From IMG/VR virus record IMGVR_UViG_3300022752_000014: a DNA stretch of 64,000 nt; one strand, written 5' to 3'. Below, one piece after another: positions 3,954 to 43,045 of this stretch. The notes below the pieces were generated by a model that saw nothing but the letters and a program-made list of their open reading frames with translations, ran no database searches and was not told the origin of the DNA. The DNA comes from a virus (taxonomy: Duplodnaviria > Caudoviricetes). How positions within the stretch are numbered: position 1 is the first letter of the stretch; each line of letters opens with the position of its first letter. Position numbers and translations under genes: made by a program.

Positions 3954-3981
3954 AAAAAAAGGAGGGATAAAACCCTCCTTT
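3954..3981. terminator. Bidirectional intrinsic terminator
   Basis: A7-GGAGGG-ATAAAA-CCCTCC-TTT between convergent ORFs. Confidence 0.8.
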
Positions 3982-3985
3982 AACT

Positions 3986-4189
3986 TTATTTGGAACTCAC
4001 AAAAGAGTTGATTTTATTTGCAAGTTCTTCAATATACTCATAAGAAGGAAATTGGGGATAATCCATCTTTACAGTATTCATAGAGTTCTCATTCCAGCAA
4101 CGAGCAGTATCATATTCAATATTAAACTTATCATTTGCGTGAGCATATGCTTGCTTGAAAATTTCAAACCGAAGTTCATAAGGTGTCAT
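3986..4189 (-). CDS. Hypothetical protein
   Basis: MTPYELRFEIFKQAY...; GGAG SD upstream. Confidence 0.7.
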   Translation of the reverse strand: MTPYELRFEIFKQAYAHANDKFNIEYDTARCWNENSMNTVKMDYPQFPSYEYIEELANKINSFVSSK

Positions 4190-4986: not shown

Positions 4987-6528
4987 ATGGCAGGCAAGAT
5001 AGCTGCAGAAACTTTAAACGAAACAATGTGGGTTGTTTATTATGCCATTTGTAAGAAATCCAGCAACTTTGTTATAAGAGGAACTAATATTGATGCAAAC
5101 TATTGGATTGATGTGTTTGGGTCAAAGGATAAACTAAAAGGATTTCTAAAGAAGTTTGGATTGGAATCTGACTTGGAAGAGTTTTCTTATGAGATAAGAG
5201 ACATTGATTCAAAGATGGATGCAACTTATGCTAAAAGTTTTTTTGTTAGTAATGACTGGCACAACGCACTGAAATCACAAGTTCAAAATTTTCTAAAGAA
5301 TAGTAAAGTTGGTTTTACTAAAAATCTAGATATTATTCGCCAAGATGGTTTTTATAAGGTCAGTGGTTTAGAAGAATTTTTAAAAAAGATTTGGAACGTA
5401 TTCCAATTTAGGGGAACTTTTGATCGTTGGAATCCATCCGACGTTTGGTTTTATGATGCATCTTCCATTAGAGAAATAAAGGCATATCTGAAAACAACCT
5501 CTGTTTATAATCGGGAAGTAATACTTCTCTCTCAAAGAGTTCAAAAAAATTATGCTTTGGAGGACGTTGTTGGATTAAACAGATTATTTGTTAAATTATA
5601 TGAGGAGAAAAAATTAGCACCAATATCACTTAAAAAGGCAACATCCACAAAGGGAGTTTATTCTTCCCGAATTGGATTGGTGAATGTTCCTCAAGATGAT
5701 ATGGGAAGACCAACTCCACCAAAAGTTACTGCAACACAATTACCAATTAAACCTTATCCTAAAGATTATGTCGCTGGTGGTTTATCTGGTAGTGGTGGTA
5801 AAGATTTGAAATATGATATTGAAATTGACCAAGTGATTTTGGATGAGAATGGAAGAAAAAAGTATGTGAGAGAATATGATTACGTCGGATATAATGCAAA
5901 GGGAAAAACTCTTGGTGTTAAAAAGGAAAGGCAATTCTCTCAAGCACAAGGCGGTTCTTTAGGACTGGATATTGCAGAAAAGGTTTTATACACTGCTCAG
6001 GGAAGTAGAGAAATTAAAAAAGTCAGAGATGAGGTATTTAAATCAAGTTTATCCGCTGATATGTTAAGTAAGGGTGAGATGAAGGGTAAAGATAGAGATG
6101 CACAATTTAGTAATGCTCTTGATTATATCCAGAGAATGTGTGAGGAACTTGAACCATCTGTTAAGAACAAATCAATTAGATTTGCTAGAACCGATGCAAA
6201 CAATAACCGAGAACTCAAAAACAAAGATGCTTATATAGAAGCGCAAAATAAACTTGAAATTGCAATGGCGATTGAAAAATCAGGAGTGCCTGATGAAATT
6301 GTGTTAGACTTGTGGAAGGCAATTACAAGTAAAGGTATAACTAATAGAAAAGATTATGAAAGATTGATTGAAAGAATTGGTAAGTCTAAGTATGAACAAT
6401 CCAGAAAGAAAGGACAAAAAAGACTCACTCAACAACAAGCGGATGAAGCAGCAGCACAATCTTTAAGAGCAACTATTGTTGGTAGTGCATCAAAGGTCCC
6501 TGGGTCCTTTCATTTAAAACTCTATTAA
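4987..6528 (+). CDS. Hypothetical protein, possible PD-(D/E)XK-like nuclease
   Basis: DRWNPSDVWF...APISLKK; weak motif only. Confidence 0.5.
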   Translation: MAGKIAAETLNETMWVVYYAICKKSSNFVIRGTNIDANYWIDVFGSKDKLKGFLKKFGLESDLEEFSYEIRDIDSKMDATYAKSFFVSNDWHNALKSQVQNFLKNSKVGFTKNLDIIRQDGFYKVSGLEEFLKKIWNVFQFRGTFDRWNPSDVWFYDASSIREIKAYLKTTSVYNREVILLSQRVQKNYALEDVVGLNRLFVKLYEEKKLAPISLKKATSTKGVYSSRIGLVNVPQDDMGRPTPPKVTATQLPIKPYPKDYVAGGLSGSGGKDLKYDIEIDQVILDENGRKKYVREYDYVGYNAKGKTLGVKKERQFSQAQGGSLGLDIAEKVLYTAQGSREIKKVRDEVFKSSLSADMLSKGEMKGKDRDAQFSNALDYIQRMCEELEPSVKNKSIRFARTDANNNRELKNKDAYIEAQNKLEIAMAIEKSGVPDEIVLDLWKAITSKGITNRKDYERLIERIGKSKYEQSRKKGQKRLTQQQADEAAAQSLRATIVGSASKVPGSFHLKLY

Positions 6529-6565: not shown

Positions 6566-7858
6566 ATGAAGAGTTTTTTCCAATTTTTATCAGAGGCAGC
6601 ACAATCGCAAGCATCAATGCAAGCGAAGAAACTTGGATTGACTGGTGATGGCCACGGCGGTTGGATAGACCGTAGCGGAAAAACTGTAGCGAGAACAGAT
6701 AAAGGCAAACTCAAATTCATTGATGGTCGTCAAGCAAATGGTGCCGAAGAACCAGCACCTGCAGCACAACCAGCAGCACCTGCACCAATGCCTCAACAGG
6801 CAGCACCTGCATCTGCACCACAACCTCAAGCAGCACCAGCGGGAGCACAGGCACCTGAGGAACAACCTCAAGAACTTCCACCACTCACCATTGTATTTGG
6901 TCGCTTCAATCCACCAACAGTAGGGCACGAAAAACTTCTTAAGTCTGCGAAGAGAATTTCGGGTGGAGGAGACATTAAGATTTATCCTTCAAGAACTCAA
7001 GATCCTAAGAAGAACCCATTAGACCCGAGTAAGAAGGTTGGGTATATGAAGAAGATGTTCCCTGAGTTTAAGGATAACATCATCAATGACCCTGAGATGA
7101 AATCAATTTTCAATGTTCTTGTAACTGCAAACGAAGACGGATATACTTCAGTCAATATCGTTGTTGGTTCAGATCGTCAGGCAGAGTTTGAAAATCTAGC
7201 GCAAAAATATAATGGAGACCTATATGACTTTGATCAAATCCGTGTAATCTCTGCTGGTGCTCGTGATGCTGATGCTGAAGGTATTGAAGGAATGTCAGCA
7301 TCTAAAATGAGAAAAGCAGTGATGGACGATGACTTCAAATCTTTCCGCAGAGGAACTCCAAAAACTTTGAGTGATGGTGAAACACAATCACTTTTCAATG
7401 CAGTTCGCCAAGCGATGGGAGTTAAGAAGGCAAAGGTCAAGAAGGAAAATTATTCTTTATGGGAAGTTGCTCCAAAATTTGATATGAAAAATCTTCGTGA
7501 GAATTATGTATTAGGAAACATTTTTAGAATCGGAGACAGTGTTCAAAACTTGAATACTGGATTAGTTGGTGAAGTCATTCGTAGAGGAACGAACCATCTT
7601 ATCTGTGTAACTGAAGAAGGTTATATGTTCAAGTCCTGGATTAAGGATGTGATGGAATATACTGAAGTCAAAATGGATAAGACATATAGACTTCCTGGAA
7701 AACCAAATACTCTTGCTGGAACCACTGGGTATTTGAAATATGCAAAACAACAAACACCAGGATCTACTTTAGGAAAACAAAATCTTCAATCTGGCGGTAA
7801 GGCATTTTTAGACAAATTTATAAATAAGTATAAGAAAGAAAAAGTACGTACTTATTAA
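6566..7858 (+). CDS. Cytidylyl/nucleotidyltransferase (HxGH family) with Pro/Ala/Gln linker
   Basis: FGRFNPPTVGHEKLL, VVGSDR, MSASKMR. Confidence 0.85.
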   Translation: MKSFFQFLSEAAQSQASMQAKKLGLTGDGHGGWIDRSGKTVARTDKGKLKFIDGRQANGAEEPAPAAQPAAPAPMPQQAAPASAPQPQAAPAGAQAPEEQPQELPPLTIVFGRFNPPTVGHEKLLKSAKRISGGGDIKIYPSRTQDPKKNPLDPSKKVGYMKKMFPEFKDNIINDPEMKSIFNVLVTANEDGYTSVNIVVGSDRQAEFENLAQKYNGDLYDFDQIRVISAGARDADAEGIEGMSASKMRKAVMDDDFKSFRRGTPKTLSDGETQSLFNAVRQAMGVKKAKVKKENYSLWEVAPKFDMKNLRENYVLGNIFRIGDSVQNLNTGLVGEVIRRGTNHLICVTEEGYMFKSWIKDVMEYTEVKMDKTYRLPGKPNTLAGTTGYLKYAKQQTPGSTLGKQNLQSGGKAFLDKFINKYKKEKVRTY

Positions 7859-20582: not shown

Positions 20583-21017
20583 ATGGAAAAACTATTTAAA
20601 CTCTTGAGTGATGCTCAGTCATCACTTTTTGTTTTGTTTCATAAAACTTGGGCATTTCATTGGAATGTAGTTGGTTCTGATTTTACTCAACTACATCAAC
20701 TCTTTGGTGGACAGTATGAAACTATGTTTGAAGAGATTGATCGTCTCTCAGAGCATATGCGTTATTTGAATGTAAAACCTCTCAGTTCTCTCTCTAGAAT
20801 GCTTGAGGTTACACAGATTAAGGAGGCAGCAAGTTCCACAGGAGCAAAAGAAATGCTCCAAGAACTTCTTGAAAATAACGAAAAGTTTTGTGAATTAATG
20901 CAAGGGATTTCAGAAGAAGCAGAAGAGCAAAAGCAATATGCGACTGCTAATCTAGTTCAAGATTTAATGGAATCTCACGGCAAATTTGTTTGGCAGTTAA
21001 GATCTCATTTACAATGA
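20583..21017 (+). CDS. dps: Dps ferritin-like protein
   Basis: HWNVVGSDFTQLHQLF...EEIDRLSEH...ESHGKFVWQLRS. Confidence 0.9.
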   Translation: MEKLFKLLSDAQSSLFVLFHKTWAFHWNVVGSDFTQLHQLFGGQYETMFEEIDRLSEHMRYLNVKPLSSLSRMLEVTQIKEAASSTGAKEMLQELLENNEKFCELMQGISEEAEEQKQYATANLVQDLMESHGKFVWQLRSHLQ

Positions 21018-21284: not shown

Positions 21285-21295
21285 ACCTCCCCACT

Positions 21296-21380
21296 GGAAA
21301 GGTGGTCGAGTGGTTGAAGGCTCTAGTCTTGAAAACTAGCGATGTGAAAGCATCCGTGGGTTCGAATCCCACCCTTTCCG
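21296..21380 (+). tRNA. tRNA-Ser(UGA)
   Basis: CTAGT-CTTGAAA-ACTAG; long variable arm. Confidence 0.95.
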
Positions 21381-21494
21381 TTTCAATAAGTTACAAATTT
21401 AACAATTGCTTAATAAGTGTTACGTAACGAACACAAAAGATTGACTGTGAAAGTCTTGTGGATAGTATATAGTAGTATCACAAGTATTAAACCT

Positions 21495-21644
21495 ATGGAT
21501 CAACACACCTATGAAAACTGGGTGAAGATCAAGGAAACTTTTGAAGCTTCTGGCAACACCGACAACATGTTTTATTATAGATCTTGCGAAATTGTAAAAA
21601 CTAAAAAAGATCCTCTTGCAAAATTTCTTGGAGACGAGAAATGA
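21495..21644 (+). CDS. Hypothetical protein (49 aa)
   Basis: MDQHTYENWVKIKETFE... Confidence 0.6.
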   Translation: MDQHTYENWVKIKETFEASGNTDNMFYYRSCEIVKTKKDPLAKFLGDEK

Positions 21645-21844
21645 TGCACGAACAAGAAGAATTAGTTACACGTTCTGAAGTTCAGGAGATGATTGATGCT
21701 GCTATACGAAGGCACAATCGGAATGCTTCCATTATTAGTATGTGCGTTGGGTGGGTGGTTCTTGCTTTATTTGCTGAAGGACTGCTAAGACTGATTGGGG
21801 TTATTCCGCCAGTTCTACCATGGCTCAAGATTACTCTCCACTAA
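21641..21844 (+). CDS. Small membrane protein
   Basis: IISMCVGWVVLALFAEGLLRLIGVIPP. Confidence 0.65.
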   Translation: MMHEQEELVTRSEVQEMIDAAIRRHNRNASIISMCVGWVVLALFAEGLLRLIGVIPPVLPWLKITLH

Positions 21845-22131
21845 TATTTTTAGTTCCTTGGTTTGTACTTGTGGGTATTGCACTTTCAATGATTGTGCAA
21901 GGTTGGATGATTATGAATGCTCAACACGGGTATTCTAAGAGTCCAAAAGTAAAACATCCAGAGTTAAACGACGTTAAAGCAGGAGACCCGTTACTAGTGG
22001 TTAGATTTACAGACGAAGACATCGAACAACTTCAAAGAAGAGTTTTACAACAGAAGATAGACGAATTATTCGAAGAACCCTCTAGTTACGAGGACGACGA
22101 TGATGACGATGGAATGGCAGGAGTTAATTGA
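21820..22131 (+). CDS. Membrane protein, DUF2973-like
   Basis: N-terminal TM, KHPEL...LLVVRF. Confidence 0.55.
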   Translation: MAQDYSPLIFLVPWFVLVGIALSMIVQGWMIMNAQHGYSKSPKVKHPELNDVKAGDPLLVVRFTDEDIEQLQRRVLQQKIDELFEEPSSYEDDDDDDGMAGVN

Positions 22132-22222
22132 ATTCCTTACAAAACAAATCTTGATTTTTATCGTGTTTATGTGTGGACTTATTGTTGGTTATGTTTATGG
22201 ACTACGAGAAGGAGGACAATGA
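22109..22222 (+). CDS. Single-TM micro-protein (37 aa)
   Basis: MEWQELIEFLTKQILIFIVFMCGLIVGYVYGLREGGQ*. Confidence 0.55.
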   Translation: MEWQELIEFLTKQILIFIVFMCGLIVGYVYGLREGGQ

Positions 22223-22311
22223 ACAAAAATTTACTGTTCAATGCATTAACTGTAATTGGTGCAATTGGATGCTTTGTTATATGGGGTTTAAATAACGCTT
22301 ATCCACAATGA
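22219..22311 (+). CDS. Single-TM micro-protein (30 aa), NdhQ-like C-terminus
   Basis: MNKNLLFNALTVIGAIGCFVIWGLNNAYPQ*; GGAGG SD; ATGA overlaps at both ends. Confidence 0.55.
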   Translation: MNKNLLFNALTVIGAIGCFVIWGLNNAYPQ

Positions 22312-22808
22312 AAAAACTCAACGATACAATTCTAACAGTCACGATTGCAATCATTGACTTTCTGTATCGTGACTTACCCATTCAAAGATTCTGGGTTCTA
22401 GAGACTATTGCCAGAGCACCTTACTTTGCCTTTTTAAGTGTGTTGCATCTGAGAGAGTCTCTTGGATTGCGAACAGATTCACACTACTATTTGATGAAAG
22501 AACACTTTGCACAAACCGTCAATGAAACAGAACACCTTATCGAAATGGAATCGCGTGGTGGGAGTAACCGTTGGATTGACCGCTTTTTCGCTTATCATTT
22601 GGTTATCATCTATTATTGGATTCTGGTGGTTTATTATTCTATTGCTCCCATCTCTGCTTATCATCTAAACACGGGTATTGAGTATCACGCCACAGAAACT
22701 TATCTCTCATACCTCTGGGAGCATCCAGAAGACACAAAGATCGCTGAGATTGCGGTTGATGAAATGAATCACTATATTGAACTTACAAGAGCAATGGAGA
22801 TGATTTGA
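22308..22808 (+). CDS. ptoX: Plastoquinol terminal oxidase
   Basis: RFWVLETIARAPYFAFLSVLH, ETEH, EYHATETY, DEMNH di-iron ligands. Confidence 0.95.
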   Translation: MKKLNDTILTVTIAIIDFLYRDLPIQRFWVLETIARAPYFAFLSVLHLRESLGLRTDSHYYLMKEHFAQTVNETEHLIEMESRGGSNRWIDRFFAYHLVIIYYWILVVYYSIAPISAYHLNTGIEYHATETYLSYLWEHPEDTKIAEIAVDEMNHYIELTRAMEMI

Positions 22809-22930
22809 TGTTATTAGCAAAAGCACTTTTATTTGTTTCAATTCCTTTCGTTTTAGCAACACTCTATTTCGGAACAAAAGGAGGGTATTATGACTCCAAA
22901 GATTATAAGGGAAACGGAACCGCACATTAG
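22808..22930 (+). CDS. ndhP: NdhP-like small subunit of photosynthetic complex I (NDH-1L), 40 aa
   Basis: MLLAKALLFVSIPFVLATLYFGTKGGYYDSKDYKGNGTAH*; TM + FGT.x.G.YD...Y.GNG.AH signature. Confidence 0.82.
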   Translation: MLLAKALLFVSIPFVLATLYFGTKGGYYDSKDYKGNGTAH

Positions 22931-23108
22931 GCAAAGATACCACTTTGCGACAACTGCATTTGTAAGAATGTGGGGGCACAGTTCACTACACGATCATAAG
23001 ATTGTAGACTTTTGTATTGAATGGGCACATAAAGAAGAGAATGCTCCACTTGACAACACAGTTGATCAATATTTTTATTATGAATTTAAGACTTGGAGGG
23101 GATATTGA
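22890..23108 (+). CDS. Hypothetical protein
   Basis: 72 aa; overlaps the ndhP-like ORF in another frame. Confidence 0.6.
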   Translation: MTPKIIRETEPHIRQRYHFATTAFVRMWGHSSLHDHKIVDFCIEWAHKEENAPLDNTVDQYFYYEFKTWRGY

Positions 23109-23260
23109 TGGGACACTTTGCAAGATGGGTATTAGAAAATCCATATACTCTGGGTATTATTGGATATCTGTTAATTGTTGTACCTATTATGGGTATCTGG
23201 GCAATTCATAAGTATGGTTGGCAGCACTGGGCTCCATTTGACAAGGGGCACAAGGAGTAG
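23108..23260 (+). CDS. Single-TM micro-protein (50 aa)
   Basis: MGHFARWVLENPYTLGIIGYLLIVVPIMGIWAIHKYGWQHWAPFDKGHKE*. Confidence 0.6.
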   Translation: MGHFARWVLENPYTLGIIGYLLIVVPIMGIWAIHKYGWQHWAPFDKGHKE

Positions 23261-23266
23261 TATAAT
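23238..23266 (+). promoter_or_regulatory. Sigma70-type promoter
   Basis: TTGACA-17-TATAAT. Confidence 0.8.
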
Positions 23267-23300: not shown

Positions 23301-23374
23301 CGGGGTGTAGCGCAGCTTGGTAGCGCATCTGCTTTGGGAGCAGAGGGTCGCAGGTTCGAATCCTGTCACCCCGA
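23301..23374 (+). tRNA. tRNA-Pro(UGG)
   Basis: TCTGC-TTTGGGA-GCAGA; C1:G72. Confidence 0.95.
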
Positions 23375-23392
23375 CTCATAAAACTTTACATT

Positions 23393-23632
23393 ATGAAAAT
23401 GTACAAAGACCTTAACGAACTCGAATCATTTACGGTTGAACAGTTTCAGGTAGATTTTGATACTCTGATAGAAAGAGTTGAAAATGGAGAATCATTTATC
23501 ATAACAGATGGGGAAAGGAACGCGGTAATAGTTCCTTATAACGAAACTATTAAGTTTGCAGTAGAATCAACAGAATCAATTGTGGATGACGAAATGATAC
23601 GTCTTCACACTGATCACGAAGAGGGATCGTAA
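23393..23632 (+). CDS. Phd/YefM-like small protein
   Basis: FDTLIERVENGESFIITDGERNAVIVP. Confidence 0.6.
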   Translation: MKMYKDLNELESFTVEQFQVDFDTLIERVENGESFIITDGERNAVIVPYNETIKFAVESTESIVDDEMIRLHTDHEEGS

Positions 23633-42460: not shown

Positions 42461-42655
42461 ATGACTGTAACAACTAACGAACTTGGACAACAGAATATGT
42501 TTGCCAAGGAACCTGTAATGTATTACGAAAACTATGGGATGTTATCTCCCAATCAAGTAAAGGAGAGAACTAATGGGCGCTGGGCAATGGTCGGTATTGT
42601 TGCTGGTTTTATTTCTTATGCGCTCACTGGCAACCTCTACTTCGGACTCTTCTGA
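42461..42655 (+). CDS. hli: High-light-inducible protein
   Basis: ERTNGRWAMVG. Confidence 0.9.
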   Translation: MTVTTNELGQQNMFAKEPVMYYENYGMLSPNQVKERTNGRWAMVGIVAGFISYALTGNLYFGLF

Positions 42656-42754: not shown

Positions 42755-43045
42755 ATGGCTTACAATGTTACTCTCCGTTCTCCCGACGGCTCCGAAACCA
42801 CTATTCAGTGTGAGGGTGATCAGTATATTCTTGAAGCAGCAGAAGAAGCAGGTGTGGATCTTCCTTCTTCGTGTAAGGCAGGTGCTTGCTCCGCTTGTGC
42901 TGGCAAACTGATTAGCGGCACTGTGGATAACGAAGAGCAGTCGTTCCTGGATGATGAACAGCAGGCAGATGGTTGGATTCTCACTTGTGTTGCATATCCC
43001 ACCAGCGACTGCGTAATTCTGACCGAACAGGAAGAGAACCTGTGA
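42755..43045 (+). CDS. petF: Plant-type [2Fe-2S] ferredoxin
   Basis: CKAGACSAC...LTC. Confidence 0.96.

What the first reader, a model, noticed from the sequence alone, without database searches (positions are those of the whole stretch)
21641..23260. Translationally coupled ndhQ-like / ptoX / ndhP-like cassette: a candidate phage module for the plastoquinone pool
ptoX sits in a chain of coupled micro-ORFs, most with one TM helix (67, 103, 37, 30, [ptoX], 40, 72 and 50 aa). If both flanking peptides are NDH-1L accessory subunits, the phage would stabilise the complex that reduces plastoquinone and also supply the oxidase that reoxidises it. Phage petF (42755) could be the donor. That gives a Fd > NDH-1L > PQ > PTOX > O2 route favouring proton pumping and ATP over carbon fixation. 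I know of no description of this arrangement as a unit.
Basis: partly seen in the sequence, partly recalled or inferred. Interest (0 to 1): 0.88.

Follow-up and report, generated by a model that had tools for sequence, protein, structure and literature searches.

The report
Phage ndhQ–ptoX–ndhP gene trio
A freshwater cyanophage carries a plastoquinol oxidase gene wedged between tiny copies of two host genes (NdhQ and NdhP) for the one-helix subunits that hold the host's NDH-1L energy complex together; the NdhP copy was known in phages, a phage NdhQ was in no paper I could search, and the three genes are a swappable arrangement rather than a fixed unit.

Summary
Nine tightly packed, same-strand ORFs (21495-23260) lie between tRNA-Ser and tRNA-Pro, and six have one hydrophobic helix. 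The middle gene is a complete PTOX.

The 40-aa ORF that starts on the ptoX stop codon is a true NdhP homolog (PDB 6khi_P, E 6e-8; one hit in each of five host genomes).

The 30-aa ORF whose stop overlaps the ptoX start is an NdhQ homolog without the N-terminus. Its family profile hits only NdhQ chains in the PDB (E 0.009) and matches picocyanobacterial NdhQ at 98.7% probability by hhalign.

The other micro-ORFs are conserved phage genes with no host or solved relative.

The "cassette" is only partly right. In related viral contigs the backbone is o67-ndhQ-[slot]-ndhP-o72-o50. The slot is empty, or holds gnd, talC and/or ptoX. Isolated phages carry ndhP, ndhQ or ptoX alone or in any combination.

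An NDH-to-PQ-to-PTOX route in infected cells was already proposed (PMC5082946), and phage ndhP is known. Phage ndhQ appears unreported. ndhP is much more common (386 GenBank phage records) than a 2025 paper states.

Two other follow-ups of this scan found the same ndhQ/ndhP pair flanking gnd on other DNA.

Function is inferred, not shown.

The parts
21295..21381 (+). tRNA-Ser(UGA); upstream boundary of the islet
   Evidence: ARAGORN
21441..21468 (+). Promoter-like site (TTGACT-16-TAGTAT, 9/12) ahead of the ORF chain
   Evidence: This is a consensus match only.
21495..21644 (+). o49: soluble 49-aa conserved phage ORF, function unknown
   Evidence: Found in 123 related viral loci; dN/dS 0.06. 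No Pfam or PHROG match.
21641..21844 (+). o67: 67-aa single-helix phage protein (phrog_1096; clusters auto-named 'Gp7')
   Evidence: phrog_1096 2e-38. Found in 134 loci with 85% column identity. No host or PDB relative. Atlas 'Gp7' clusters score 0.96.
21820..22131 (+). o103: N-terminal helix plus acidic C-terminal tail. In many relatives only the roughly 37-aa tail ORF is present.
   Evidence: DUF2973 scores 21 bits, just under the 22.2-bit cut-off. No host hit.
22109..22222 (+). o37: 37-aa single-helix phage peptide, present in a minority of relatives
   Evidence: No PDB or host relative.
22219..22311 (+). Phage ndhQ homolog (30 aa): one helix plus the invariant W-G-L-x-x-A-Y-P end. It lacks the host N-terminal G-x-D-S-P segment.
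   Evidence: Profile A1 hits only NdhQ chains in the PDB (6khi_Q, E 0.0094). hhalign to the host NdhQ family gives 98.7% probability, E 3.7e-16. One hit in each of 5 host genomes. Host members are named NdhQ by their sources.
22308..22808 (+). ptoX, plastoquinol terminal oxidase (166 aa)
   Evidence: Pfam AOX 1e-13. phrog_4235 6.5e-79 over the full length. Ligands E32, E73xxH76, E125 and E152xxH155 are present.
22808..22930 (+). Phage ndhP homolog (40 aa). Its start codon shares one base with the ptoX stop (TGATG).
   Evidence: 6khi_P E 5.8e-8 and 6hum_P E 5.4e-7. Profile A7 hits one place in each of 5 host genomes, E 1e-12 to 1e-18. 50-71% identical to host NdhP. dN/dS 0.10.
22890..23108 (+). 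o72: soluble 72-aa phage ORF (phrog_593) that almost always follows ndhP
   Evidence: No host or PDB relative.
23108..23260 (+). o50: 50-aa single-helix phage peptide (phrog_1184). It closes the block in freshwater and marine phages.
   Evidence: No host or PDB relative.
23301..23375 (+). tRNA-Pro(UGG); downstream boundary
42755..43045 (+). petF, plant-type 2Fe-2S ferredoxin. Context only; it lies 20 kb away.
   Evidence: Pfam Fer2 1.4e-22

Best explanation
This stretch belongs to the hyperplastic auxiliary-gene region of a freshwater T4-like cyanomyovirus. In marine relatives that region lies between g16 and g17.

Its backbone is a run of small phage membrane-protein genes: o67-(o103)-(o37)-ndhQ-[slot]-ndhP-o72-o50. 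Two of them were captured from the host. These are ndhQ, shortened to the helix and C-terminal motif, and ndhP. They encode the two one-helix subunits that sandwich NdhD1 and are needed to keep NDH-1L assembled.

The gap between them is a cargo slot. In this phage it holds ptoX. In relatives it is empty or holds gnd, talC, a 55-aa ORF and/or ptoX.

Inferred mechanism: during infection the phage peptides insert into the thylakoid and occupy the NdhP and NdhQ sites on host NdhD1/NdhF1. This would sustain NDH-1L (ferredoxin to plastoquinone, proton pumping) as host synthesis fades. PTOX would independently bleed excess electrons from plastoquinol to O2.

The genes act on the same quinone pool but are modular. 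Each is kept or lost on its own.
For: Shown:
- NdhP homology to the solved chain P and to a single-copy host gene in 5 of 5 genomes.
- NdhQ homology. The phage-only profile finds nothing in the PDB except the three NdhQ sequence variants.
- The motif [FW][IV]xWGL[TNH][NH]AY picks 75 genomic loci, nearly all picocyanobacteria.
- That host family matches 6khi_Q at E 9.4e-6 over 35 residues, and its members are named NdhQ by their sources.
- hhalign of the phage family against the host family gives 98.7% probability.
- Across 1.84 billion representative proteins the profile finds only 55 at E<=1e-3, always at the protein's C-terminus.
- Negative controls: o67, o50, o72, o103 and o37 give no host hits.
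- ndhP and ndhQ are far apart in host genomes, for example 0.73 versus 1.51 Mb. They are adjacent or near each other in phages.
- Slot contents.
- PTOX is intact.

From the literature (PMC6992706): NdhP and NdhQ sandwich NdhD, contact NdhF, and deleting either one disassembles NDH-1L.

Model only: phage NdhQ against Synechococcus WH7803 NdhD (NU4C_SYNPW) scored 0.61, with the best of 3 controls at 0.00.
- That mark was reached by 58 of 80 solved complexes and 2 of 110 mismatched pairs.
- The three runs agree in 100% of contacts, and the partner's pLDDT is at least 79.
- The contacts fall on the conserved residues 19-20, 23-24 and 26-29.
- A like complex (T. elongatus NDH-1L) is solved, so this pass may come from memory. 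It shows likeness, not that this copy binds.
Against: - There is no expression, proteomic or physiological data for this phage.
- The phage NdhQ lacks the conserved host N-terminal segment, and its helix evolves fast (dN/dS 0.51 outside the motif). It may not act as a plain substitute.
- The PDB hit for the NdhQ profile is marginal on its own (E 0.0094).
- Many phages have only one of the two peptides. A joint stabilising role is therefore not required.
- The surveyed viral contigs are close relatives, so the counts are not independent events.
Confidence: 0.6

Rival explanations
1. One reading: ndhQ-ptoX-ndhP is a co-adapted, translationally coupled cassette. It was selected as a unit to run a ferredoxin > NDH-1L > plastoquinone > PTOX > O2 proton-pumping route, with phage PetF as donor.
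For: - All three genes act on the plastoquinone pool.
- ptoX lacks its own Shine-Dalgarno site, and its start overlaps the ndhQ stop.
- The ndhP start overlaps the ptoX stop in 41 of 80 ptoX-centred relatives.
- When ptoX is present it sits directly upstream of ndhP in 33 of 80 ndhP-centred loci.
- In marine Synechococcus phages ndhP lies 1-2.4 kb downstream of ptoX on the same strand.
- petF is in the window.
- An NDH-to-PTOX route in infection was proposed from transcriptomes (PMC5082946).
Against: - The exact trio occurs in only 4 of 80 ndhP-centred loci.
- The slot is empty in 19 and holds gnd in many.
- ptoX is upstream of ndhQ in 2 loci.
- Isolates with ptoX lack both peptides (P-SSM4, P-HM1), or have ndhP without ptoX (S-H35, S-RIM8, P-TIM68), or have ndhQ alone (ACG-2014i, S-RIM12, DSL-LC03).
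- GenBank holds 386 phage records with ndhP against 99 with ptoX.
- Overlapping starts and stops are the norm throughout this chain, so they do not mark these three genes out.
Confidence: 0.15
2. The phage peptides are antagonists or re-routers rather than spare parts. The truncated NdhQ (and perhaps NdhP) would compete with host subunits to change which NDH-1 form assembles. That could favour NDH-1L over the CO2-uptake forms, or destabilise the complex, as part of shutting down carbon fixation.
For: - The phage NdhQ consistently lacks the conserved host N-terminal G-x-D-S-P segment (37 phage versus 25 host sequences).
- Its helix is under relaxed constraint while the contact motif is kept.
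- NdhP is exclusive to NDH-1L (PMC4131877).
- The neighbours in the slot are pentose-phosphate genes.
Against: - NdhP is full length and 50-71% identical to the host protein, with every conserved C-terminal residue. That looks like a working copy.
- No data point to inhibition.
- The role of the NdhQ N-terminus is unknown to me.
Confidence: 0.15
3. The 30-aa ORF is not an NdhQ relative. On this view it is a generic phage one-helix peptide whose C-terminal W-G-L-x-x-A-Y resembles NdhQ by chance or convergence.
For: - The peptide is very short.
- As a single sequence it hits no NdhQ in the PDB, and its best weak matches are a CP43 helix (E 0.5).
- The profile hit to 6khi_Q is E 0.0094.
- Overall dN/dS is 0.61.
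Against: - The only three PDB hits of the profile are NdhQ.
- The profile gives E 1e-7 to 3.5e-10 to exactly one locus in each of 5 host genomes.
- hhalign gives E 3.7e-16.
- Five control peptide families give nothing.
- Only 55 hits turn up among 1.84 billion proteins.
Confidence: 0.07

Closest known systems
NdhP (sml0013 in Synechocystis; chain P of T. elongatus NDH-1L, PDB 6KHI/6HUM), including its known cyanophage copies (P-TIM68 gp169, S-SCSM2R ORF226)
   Same: - 40 aa with one helix.
- C-terminal F-G-T-x-x-G-x-Y-D-x-x-x-Y-x-G-N-G-x-A-H is kept.
- E 5.8e-8 to chain P.
- 50-71% identical to picocyanobacterial NdhP.

   Different: - It is phage-encoded.
- Here it overlaps the ptoX stop codon.
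- It is unannotated or 'hypothetical' in nearly all of the 386 GenBank phage records that hold it. A 2025 paper calls phage ndhP uncommon (PMC12801897).
NdhQ (chain Q of T. elongatus NDH-1L; picocyanobacterial 'NADH dehydrogenase subunit NdhQ')
   Same: - One helix ending in W-x-L-x-x-A-Y.
- Profile-level homology.
- Predicted to sit on NdhD through that motif (with its caveats).
   Different: - The phage form is 28-32 aa and begins about where the host helix begins.
- It lacks the 10-20 N-terminal residues that carry the conserved G-x-D-S-P.
- No paper in the searchable library links ndhQ with phages.
Cyanophage PTOX and the g16-g17 auxiliary-gene region of marine T4-like cyanophages (petE-ptoX-gnd-zwf, e.g. 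Syn9, S-RSM4, S-SM2)
   Same: - Same ptoX family (59-68% identity).
- Same small neighbours: o67, ndhP and o50 recur there.
- Same pentose-phosphate cargo genes in relatives.
   Different: - In this freshwater clade the block lies between tRNA genes.
- ndhQ is added.
- ptoX abuts ndhP directly instead of being separated from it by gnd.
Model of infected-cell electron flow with NDH feeding plastoquinone and PTOX as terminal acceptor (Thompson et al. 2016, PMC5082946)
   Different: That model rests on host transcript changes. It names no phage NdhQ and does not describe this gene arrangement.

Membership tests
NdhP | About 40 aa with a single transmembrane helix | tested here: met
   40 aa; best 19-aa hydropathy window 2.19 at residues 1-19
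NdhP | Conserved C-terminal motif F-G-T-x-x-G-x-Y-D-x-x-x-Y-x-G-N-G-x-A-H, and significant similarity to the structurally defined chain P | tested here: met
   6khi_P E 5.8e-8, aligned to the last residue. Alignment with 5 host and 5 phage copies.
NdhP | Corresponds to the single-copy host ndhP gene | tested here: met
   The phage profile hits one place per genome in 5 of 5 picocyanobacteria, E 2e-12 to 1e-18
NdhP | Physically part of NDH-1L and needed for its stability | not testable with these tools
   Needs BN-PAGE/MS or complementation
NdhQ | Single helix ending in the conserved W-x-L-x-x-A-Y C-terminus | tested here: met
   W22, G23, L24, A27 and Y28 are invariant in 37 phage sequences and align with the T. 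elongatus NdhQ C-terminus
NdhQ | Significant sequence relationship to bona fide NdhQ | tested here: met
   The only PDB hits are NdhQ (E 0.0094). The host family matches 6khi_Q at E 9.4e-6. hhalign of phage versus host gives 98.7%. Host members are named NdhQ.
NdhQ | N-terminal acidic segment with G-x-D-S-P preceding the helix (conserved from picocyanobacteria to T. elongatus) | tested here: not met
   Absent from all 37 phage sequences; present in the 25 host sequences and in 6khi_Q
NdhQ | Binds NdhD/NdhF in NDH-1L | tested here: inconclusive
   Model only: score 0.61 versus best control 0.00. The mark was reached by 58 of 80 solved complexes and 2 of 110 mismatched pairs. Runs agree 100%; partner pLDDT at least 79. 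A like complex is solved, so the pass may come from memory.
PTOX / alternative oxidase | AOX domain above the Pfam cut-off and full-length match to cyanophage PTOX | tested here: met
   PF01786 51.9 bits (cut-off 22.7). phrog_4235 residues 1-166 of 167.
PTOX / alternative oxidase | Di-iron ligand set E, ExxH, E, ExxH | tested here: met
   E32, E73/H76, E125, E152/H155
   4 of 80 ndhP-centred loci have it. The slot is otherwise empty or holds gnd, talC, or gnd plus ptoX. Marine isolates have ptoX-gnd-ndhP, and S-CAM9 has ptoX-gnd-ndhP-o72-ndhQ.
   Isolates exist with each gene alone and with each pair. The whole-record searches found no first-look candidates, so absence is probable, not proven.
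   Only overlaps and the lack of internal terminators are seen. The RNA-library data were contigs of relatives.

The most novel reading that the evidence does not exclude
Cyanomyoviruses independently captured both clamp subunits of NDH-1L, placed them side by side and shortened NdhQ. They would use the pair to build a phage-modified NDH-1L. That complex, together with the cargo genes of the slot between them (gnd, talC, ptoX), would burn pentose-phosphate and photosystem reductant through plastoquinone to O2 for ATP while carbon fixation is shut off. On this reading the ndhQ/ndhP bracket marks a functional module, not only a recombination hot spot.
Probability: 0.2. Interest if true: 0.7.

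Novelty: new member of a known kind. Interest (0 to 1): 0.5.

Why it matters
- Cyanophage auxiliary genes for NDH-1 (ndhP, ndhI, ndhD) are documented but treated as rarities.
- This work adds a second NDH-1L-specific subunit, NdhQ. It turned up in 324 IMG/VR contigs and at least 25 GenBank phage records, all unannotated.
- ndhP is in 386 GenBank phage records, not just one or two.
- The two genes frame a slot for pentose-phosphate and quinol-oxidase genes.
- This gives a concrete, testable handle on whether phages maintain or rewire NDH-1L-dependent cyclic and respiratory electron flow. That question bears on how infection uncouples ATP supply from CO2 fixation in abundant freshwater and marine picocyanobacteria.
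- It also flags a systematic annotation gap for ORFs under 50 aa.

Tried and rejected
- **Single-sequence o30 against the PDB.** No NdhQ hit. The weak CP43-helix matches (E 0.5) vanished once a profile was used, so I treat them as chance.
- **Pfam and NCBIfam.** Neither library gave any match for the NdhP or NdhQ peptides.
- **ESM Atlas for o30.** Uninformative; scores were 0.81 or lower.
- **The search for homologous proteins.** It refuses queries under 40 aa.
- **Own genome.** No whole genome is held for the window.
- **The other micro-ORFs (o67, o50, o72, o103, o37).**
  - None gave a significant PDB or host-genome match.
  - o103's DUF2973 hit is just below cut-off, and its cytochrome b559-alpha hits have E about 1. 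Both are unresolved, and I do not count them as evidence.
- **Megablast against phage isolates.** Only short patches matched, with 22% cover or less.
- **RNA libraries.**
  - Contigs of 85-99% similar relatives from two metatranscriptome studies lie on o67, the 5' part of ptoX, and ndhP/o72.
  - These are contigs. DNA carry-over is not excluded, and the parts without cover say nothing.
  - I do not count this as expression evidence.
- **Near-identical DNA elsewhere.** It occurs in lake, freshwater and sediment metagenomes of several studies. This shows presence only.
- **Whole-record searches of ten phage genomes.** The searches for the 'missing' partner gene found no first-look candidates. 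Absence is likely but not proven.
- **Papers not held.** PMC3040284 (Nowaczyk 2011) and PMC3813643 (Schwarz 2013) could not be read.
- **Phylogeny.** I did not attempt a tree of the 30-40-aa peptides because there are too few columns.
Full report
**1. What is in the sequence**

Between tRNA-Ser (21295-21381) and tRNA-Pro (23301-23375), the + strand carries nine back-to-back ORFs:

| ORF | Coordinates |
|---|---|
| o49 | 21495-21644 |
| o67 | 21641-21844 |
| o103 | 21820-22131 |
| o37 | 22109-22222 |
| o30 | 22219-22311 |
| ptoX | 22308-22808 |
| o40 | 22808-22930 |
| o72 | 22890-23108 |
| o50 | 23108-23260 |

- Every junction overlaps, as ATGA, TGATG or 23-41 nt.
- o30, o72 and o50 have GGAGG-type ribosome-binding sites. 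ptoX has none, and its ATG overlaps the o30 stop.
- Six of the eight small ORFs have one strongly hydrophobic 19-mer. o49 and o72 are soluble.
- No terminator-like site lies inside the chain. A weak promoter-like site lies at 21441-21468.

**2. The ORFs are real genes**

- I fetched three sets of 80 viral contigs: 80 around close PTOX relatives, 80 around o30 relatives and 80 around o40 relatives. They yield 24 to 134 copies of each micro-ORF.
- Pairwise dN/dS is 0.06-0.15 for o49, o67, ptoX, o40, o72 and o50, and 0.25 for o37.
- o30 is 0.61 overall. That splits into 0.17 for the eight codons around the invariant W-G-L-x-x-A-Y and 0.51 for the helix. Every helix column stays 79-100% apolar.

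**3. ptoX**

- Pfam AOX scores 51.9 bits.
- The match to phrog_4235 'plastoquinol terminal oxidase' is full length, E 6.5e-79.
- All six di-iron ligands are present.
- It is 59-68% identical to PTOX of 99 GenBank cyanophage records.

**4. o40 is NdhP**

- phmmer against all PDB chains gives NdhP of T. elongatus NDH-1L as the top two hits (6khi_P E 5.8e-8, 6hum_P E 5.4e-7). The alignment runs to the last residue.
- A profile of 20 phage copies hits exactly one strong place in each of five picocyanobacterial genomes, E 2e-12 to 1e-18.
- The phage protein is 50-71% identical to those host proteins.
- tblastn finds it in 386 GenBank phage records. Most are unannotated or 'hypothetical'. Only P-TIM68 and S-SCSM2R among the listed rows are annotated NdhP.
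- The literature already records phage ndhP:
  - 'Some cyanophages' have it (Schwarz 2013, as cited in PMC6596454).
  - Metagenomic reports exist (PMC3877843).
  - A 2025 paper calls it uncommon and previously seen only in P-TIM68 (PMC12801897). The count of 386 records contradicts that.

**5. o30 is an NdhQ homolog**

As a single sequence it finds nothing meaningful. The evidence comes from profiles:

- A profile of 37 distinct phage copies (A1) returns three hits from 177,635 PDB sequences at E<=10. All three are NdhQ variants of T. elongatus, the best at E 0.0094. The profile aligns to the C-terminal half of chain Q.
- Its core motif, scanned over 185,579 species genomes, picks 75 loci. Nearly all are Cyanobium, Synechococcus, Prochlorococcus or Vulcanococcus.
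- The ORFs there are about 38-50 aa.
  - As a profile they match 6khi_Q at E 9.4e-6 over 35 of its 45 residues.
  - Some members are named 'NADH dehydrogenase subunit NdhQ' by UniRef or NCBI.
- hhalign of the phage family against the host family gives 98.7% probability, E 3.7e-16.
- The phage profile hits one locus per genome in 5 of 5 hosts, E 1e-7 to 3.5e-10.
- Five control families (o67, o50, o72, o103, o37) hit nothing in the same genomes.
- Against 1.84 billion representative proteins, only 55 reach E<=1e-3. They are either about 29-34 aa or longer proteins matched at their C-terminal end.
- The phage form lacks the conserved host N-terminal G-x-D-S-P segment.
- No paper in the library links ndhQ with phages. 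The one apparent co-occurrence is a peptide substring.

**6. Arrangement**

In hosts the two genes are unlinked, for example at 0.73 and 1.51 Mb in one genome.

In the 80 ndhP-centred viral loci, 73 have ndhQ upstream on the same strand. The interval between the two genes varies:

| Interval between ndhQ and ndhP | Loci |
|---|---|
| Nothing | 19 |
| ptoX only, as in the window | 4 |
| A short ORF plus ptoX | 4 |
| A roughly 1.2-kb insert plus ptoX | 20 |
| Inserts without ptoX | 23 |

- Of the other three ndhQ-bearing loci, two have ptoX upstream of an adjacent ndhQ-ndhP pair and one has o72, a 1.2-kb insert and ptoX in the interval.
- The roughly 1-1.2-kb insert is a 340-344-aa 6-phosphogluconate-dehydrogenase-like gene, often with a 55-aa ORF. 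One locus also carries a transaldolase-like gene. I read these identities from the sequences.
- ptoX sits directly upstream of ndhP in 33 of the 80 loci.
- In the ptoX-centred set, the ndhP start overlaps the ptoX stop in 41 of 80 loci.
- Of 62 ndhQ-centred loci with at least 1.5 kb downstream, 26 have ndhP without ptoX, 16 have both, 2 have ptoX only and 18 have neither.
- These contigs are close relatives, so the numbers describe a clade, not independent events.

Isolates show every combination:

| Phage(s) | Arrangement |
|---|---|
| Syn9, S-SM2, S-CAM1, Bellamy, S-RSM4 | petE-ptoX-(o67)-gnd-ndhP-zwf-o50, no ndhQ found |
| S-CAM9 | ptoX-gnd-ndhP-o72-ndhQ-o50 |
| Sf-CH3 | ndhQ-gnd-ndhP-zwf |
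| S-SCSM2R | ndhQ and ndhP 4.8 kb apart |
| S-H35, S-RIM8, P-TIM68 | ndhP only |
| ACG-2014i, S-RIM12, DSL-LC03 | ndhQ only |
| P-SSM4, P-HM1 | ptoX only |

- In marine phages this is the region between g16 and g17.
- The window's trio is thus one permutation of a mosaic region, not a conserved cassette.

**7. How it most likely works**

- Established knowledge (PMC6992706):
  - NdhP and NdhQ sit at the distal membrane arm and sandwich NdhD from opposite sides.
  - They contact NdhF and interfacial lipids and carotenoids.
  - Loss of either disassembles NDH-1L.
- NdhP is specific to NDH-1L (PMC4131877).
- Inference: the phage copies occupy these sites on host NdhD1/NdhF1 and keep NDH-1L working during infection. 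PTOX separately relieves over-reduction of plastoquinone.
- A complex prediction supports the NdhQ part, with phage NdhQ as partner and Synechococcus WH7803 NdhD (NU4C_SYNPW):
  - Score 0.61 against a best control of 0.00.
  - The mark was reached by 58 of 80 solved complexes and 2 of 110 mismatched pairs.
  - The three runs share 100% of contacts, and partner pLDDT is at least 79.
  - The peptide's contacts fall on residues 19-20, 23-24 and 26-29, the part under the strongest selection.
  - Caveat: the T. elongatus complex is solved, so this may be recall. It shows likeness, not that this copy binds.
- The truncation of NdhQ leaves room for an antagonist or re-routing role.
- The NDH-to-plastoquinone-to-PTOX route itself was proposed earlier from transcriptome data (PMC5082946).
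- petF is in the window but 20 kb away.

**8. Verdict**

It overreaches on the 'unit' and on novelty of the pathway idea.
- What is new relative to the papers I could search: a phage NdhQ, the ndhQ/ndhP bracket around a cargo slot, and the true frequency of phage ndhP.
- Two other follow-ups of this scan reached the same reading on other DNA. I re-derived it independently here.
- Function remains untested.

Noticed in passing
window 23238-23266 (+): A perfect sigma-70 consensus (TTGACA, 17 nt, TATAAT; 12/12) lies inside the last codons of o50, 35 nt upstream of tRNA-Pro. It is the only full-consensus site in 2.3 kb. It may drive the downstream tRNA cluster.
   Followed up: no
window 20583-21017 (+): A 144-aa ferritin/Dps-like ORF (Pfam Ferritin 2e-22) is embedded in the tRNA cluster. 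A phage-borne Dps-type iron/oxidative-stress protein near ptoX may be worth a look.
   Followed up: partly
window 23393-23632 (+): A 79-aa Phd/YefM-antitoxin-like ORF (24.6 bits, below the cut-off of 29.8) lies between tRNA-Pro and tRNA-Ile. S-SCSM2R and DSL-LC03 have antitoxin-annotated ORFs at the matching position.
   Followed up: no
GenBank loci L323 (Syn9) 7709-7837, L245 (S-RSM4) 5004-5129, L241/L242 about 3980-4063: ndhP and ndhQ are unannotated in many isolate genomes. In Syn9 ndhP lies under the annotated start of zwf. In ACG-2014i and S-RIM12 the ndhQ ORF falls in an 'intergenic' gap.
   Followed up: partly
window 21641-21844 and relatives: The o67 family (phrog_1096) is auto-named 'Gp7' or 'baseplate wedge initiator gp7' in databases and some GenBank records, although it is a 64-72-aa one-helix protein. 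This is probably a propagated misannotation.
   Followed up: no
window 21820-22131: The o103 N-terminal helix part scores just under the Pfam cut-off for cyanobacterial DUF2973 (21 versus 22.2 bits). Its profile gives near-full-length but non-significant matches (E about 1) to cytochrome b559 alpha. In many relatives only the acidic roughly 37-aa C-terminal part exists as its own ORF.
   Followed up: partly
related loci, e.g. L273 3337-3501, L264 3807-3998: A conserved 53-64-aa soluble ORF (F-x-D-x-E-L-x-L-L-A-D-A-V-W-M-R-Q-R) travels with gnd and ptoX in the slot between ndhQ and ndhP. Its function is unknown.
   Followed up: no
window 42461-42655 and 42755-43045: An hli-like ORF (Chloroa_b-bind 19 bits, below cut-off) lies directly upstream of petF.
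   Followed up: no
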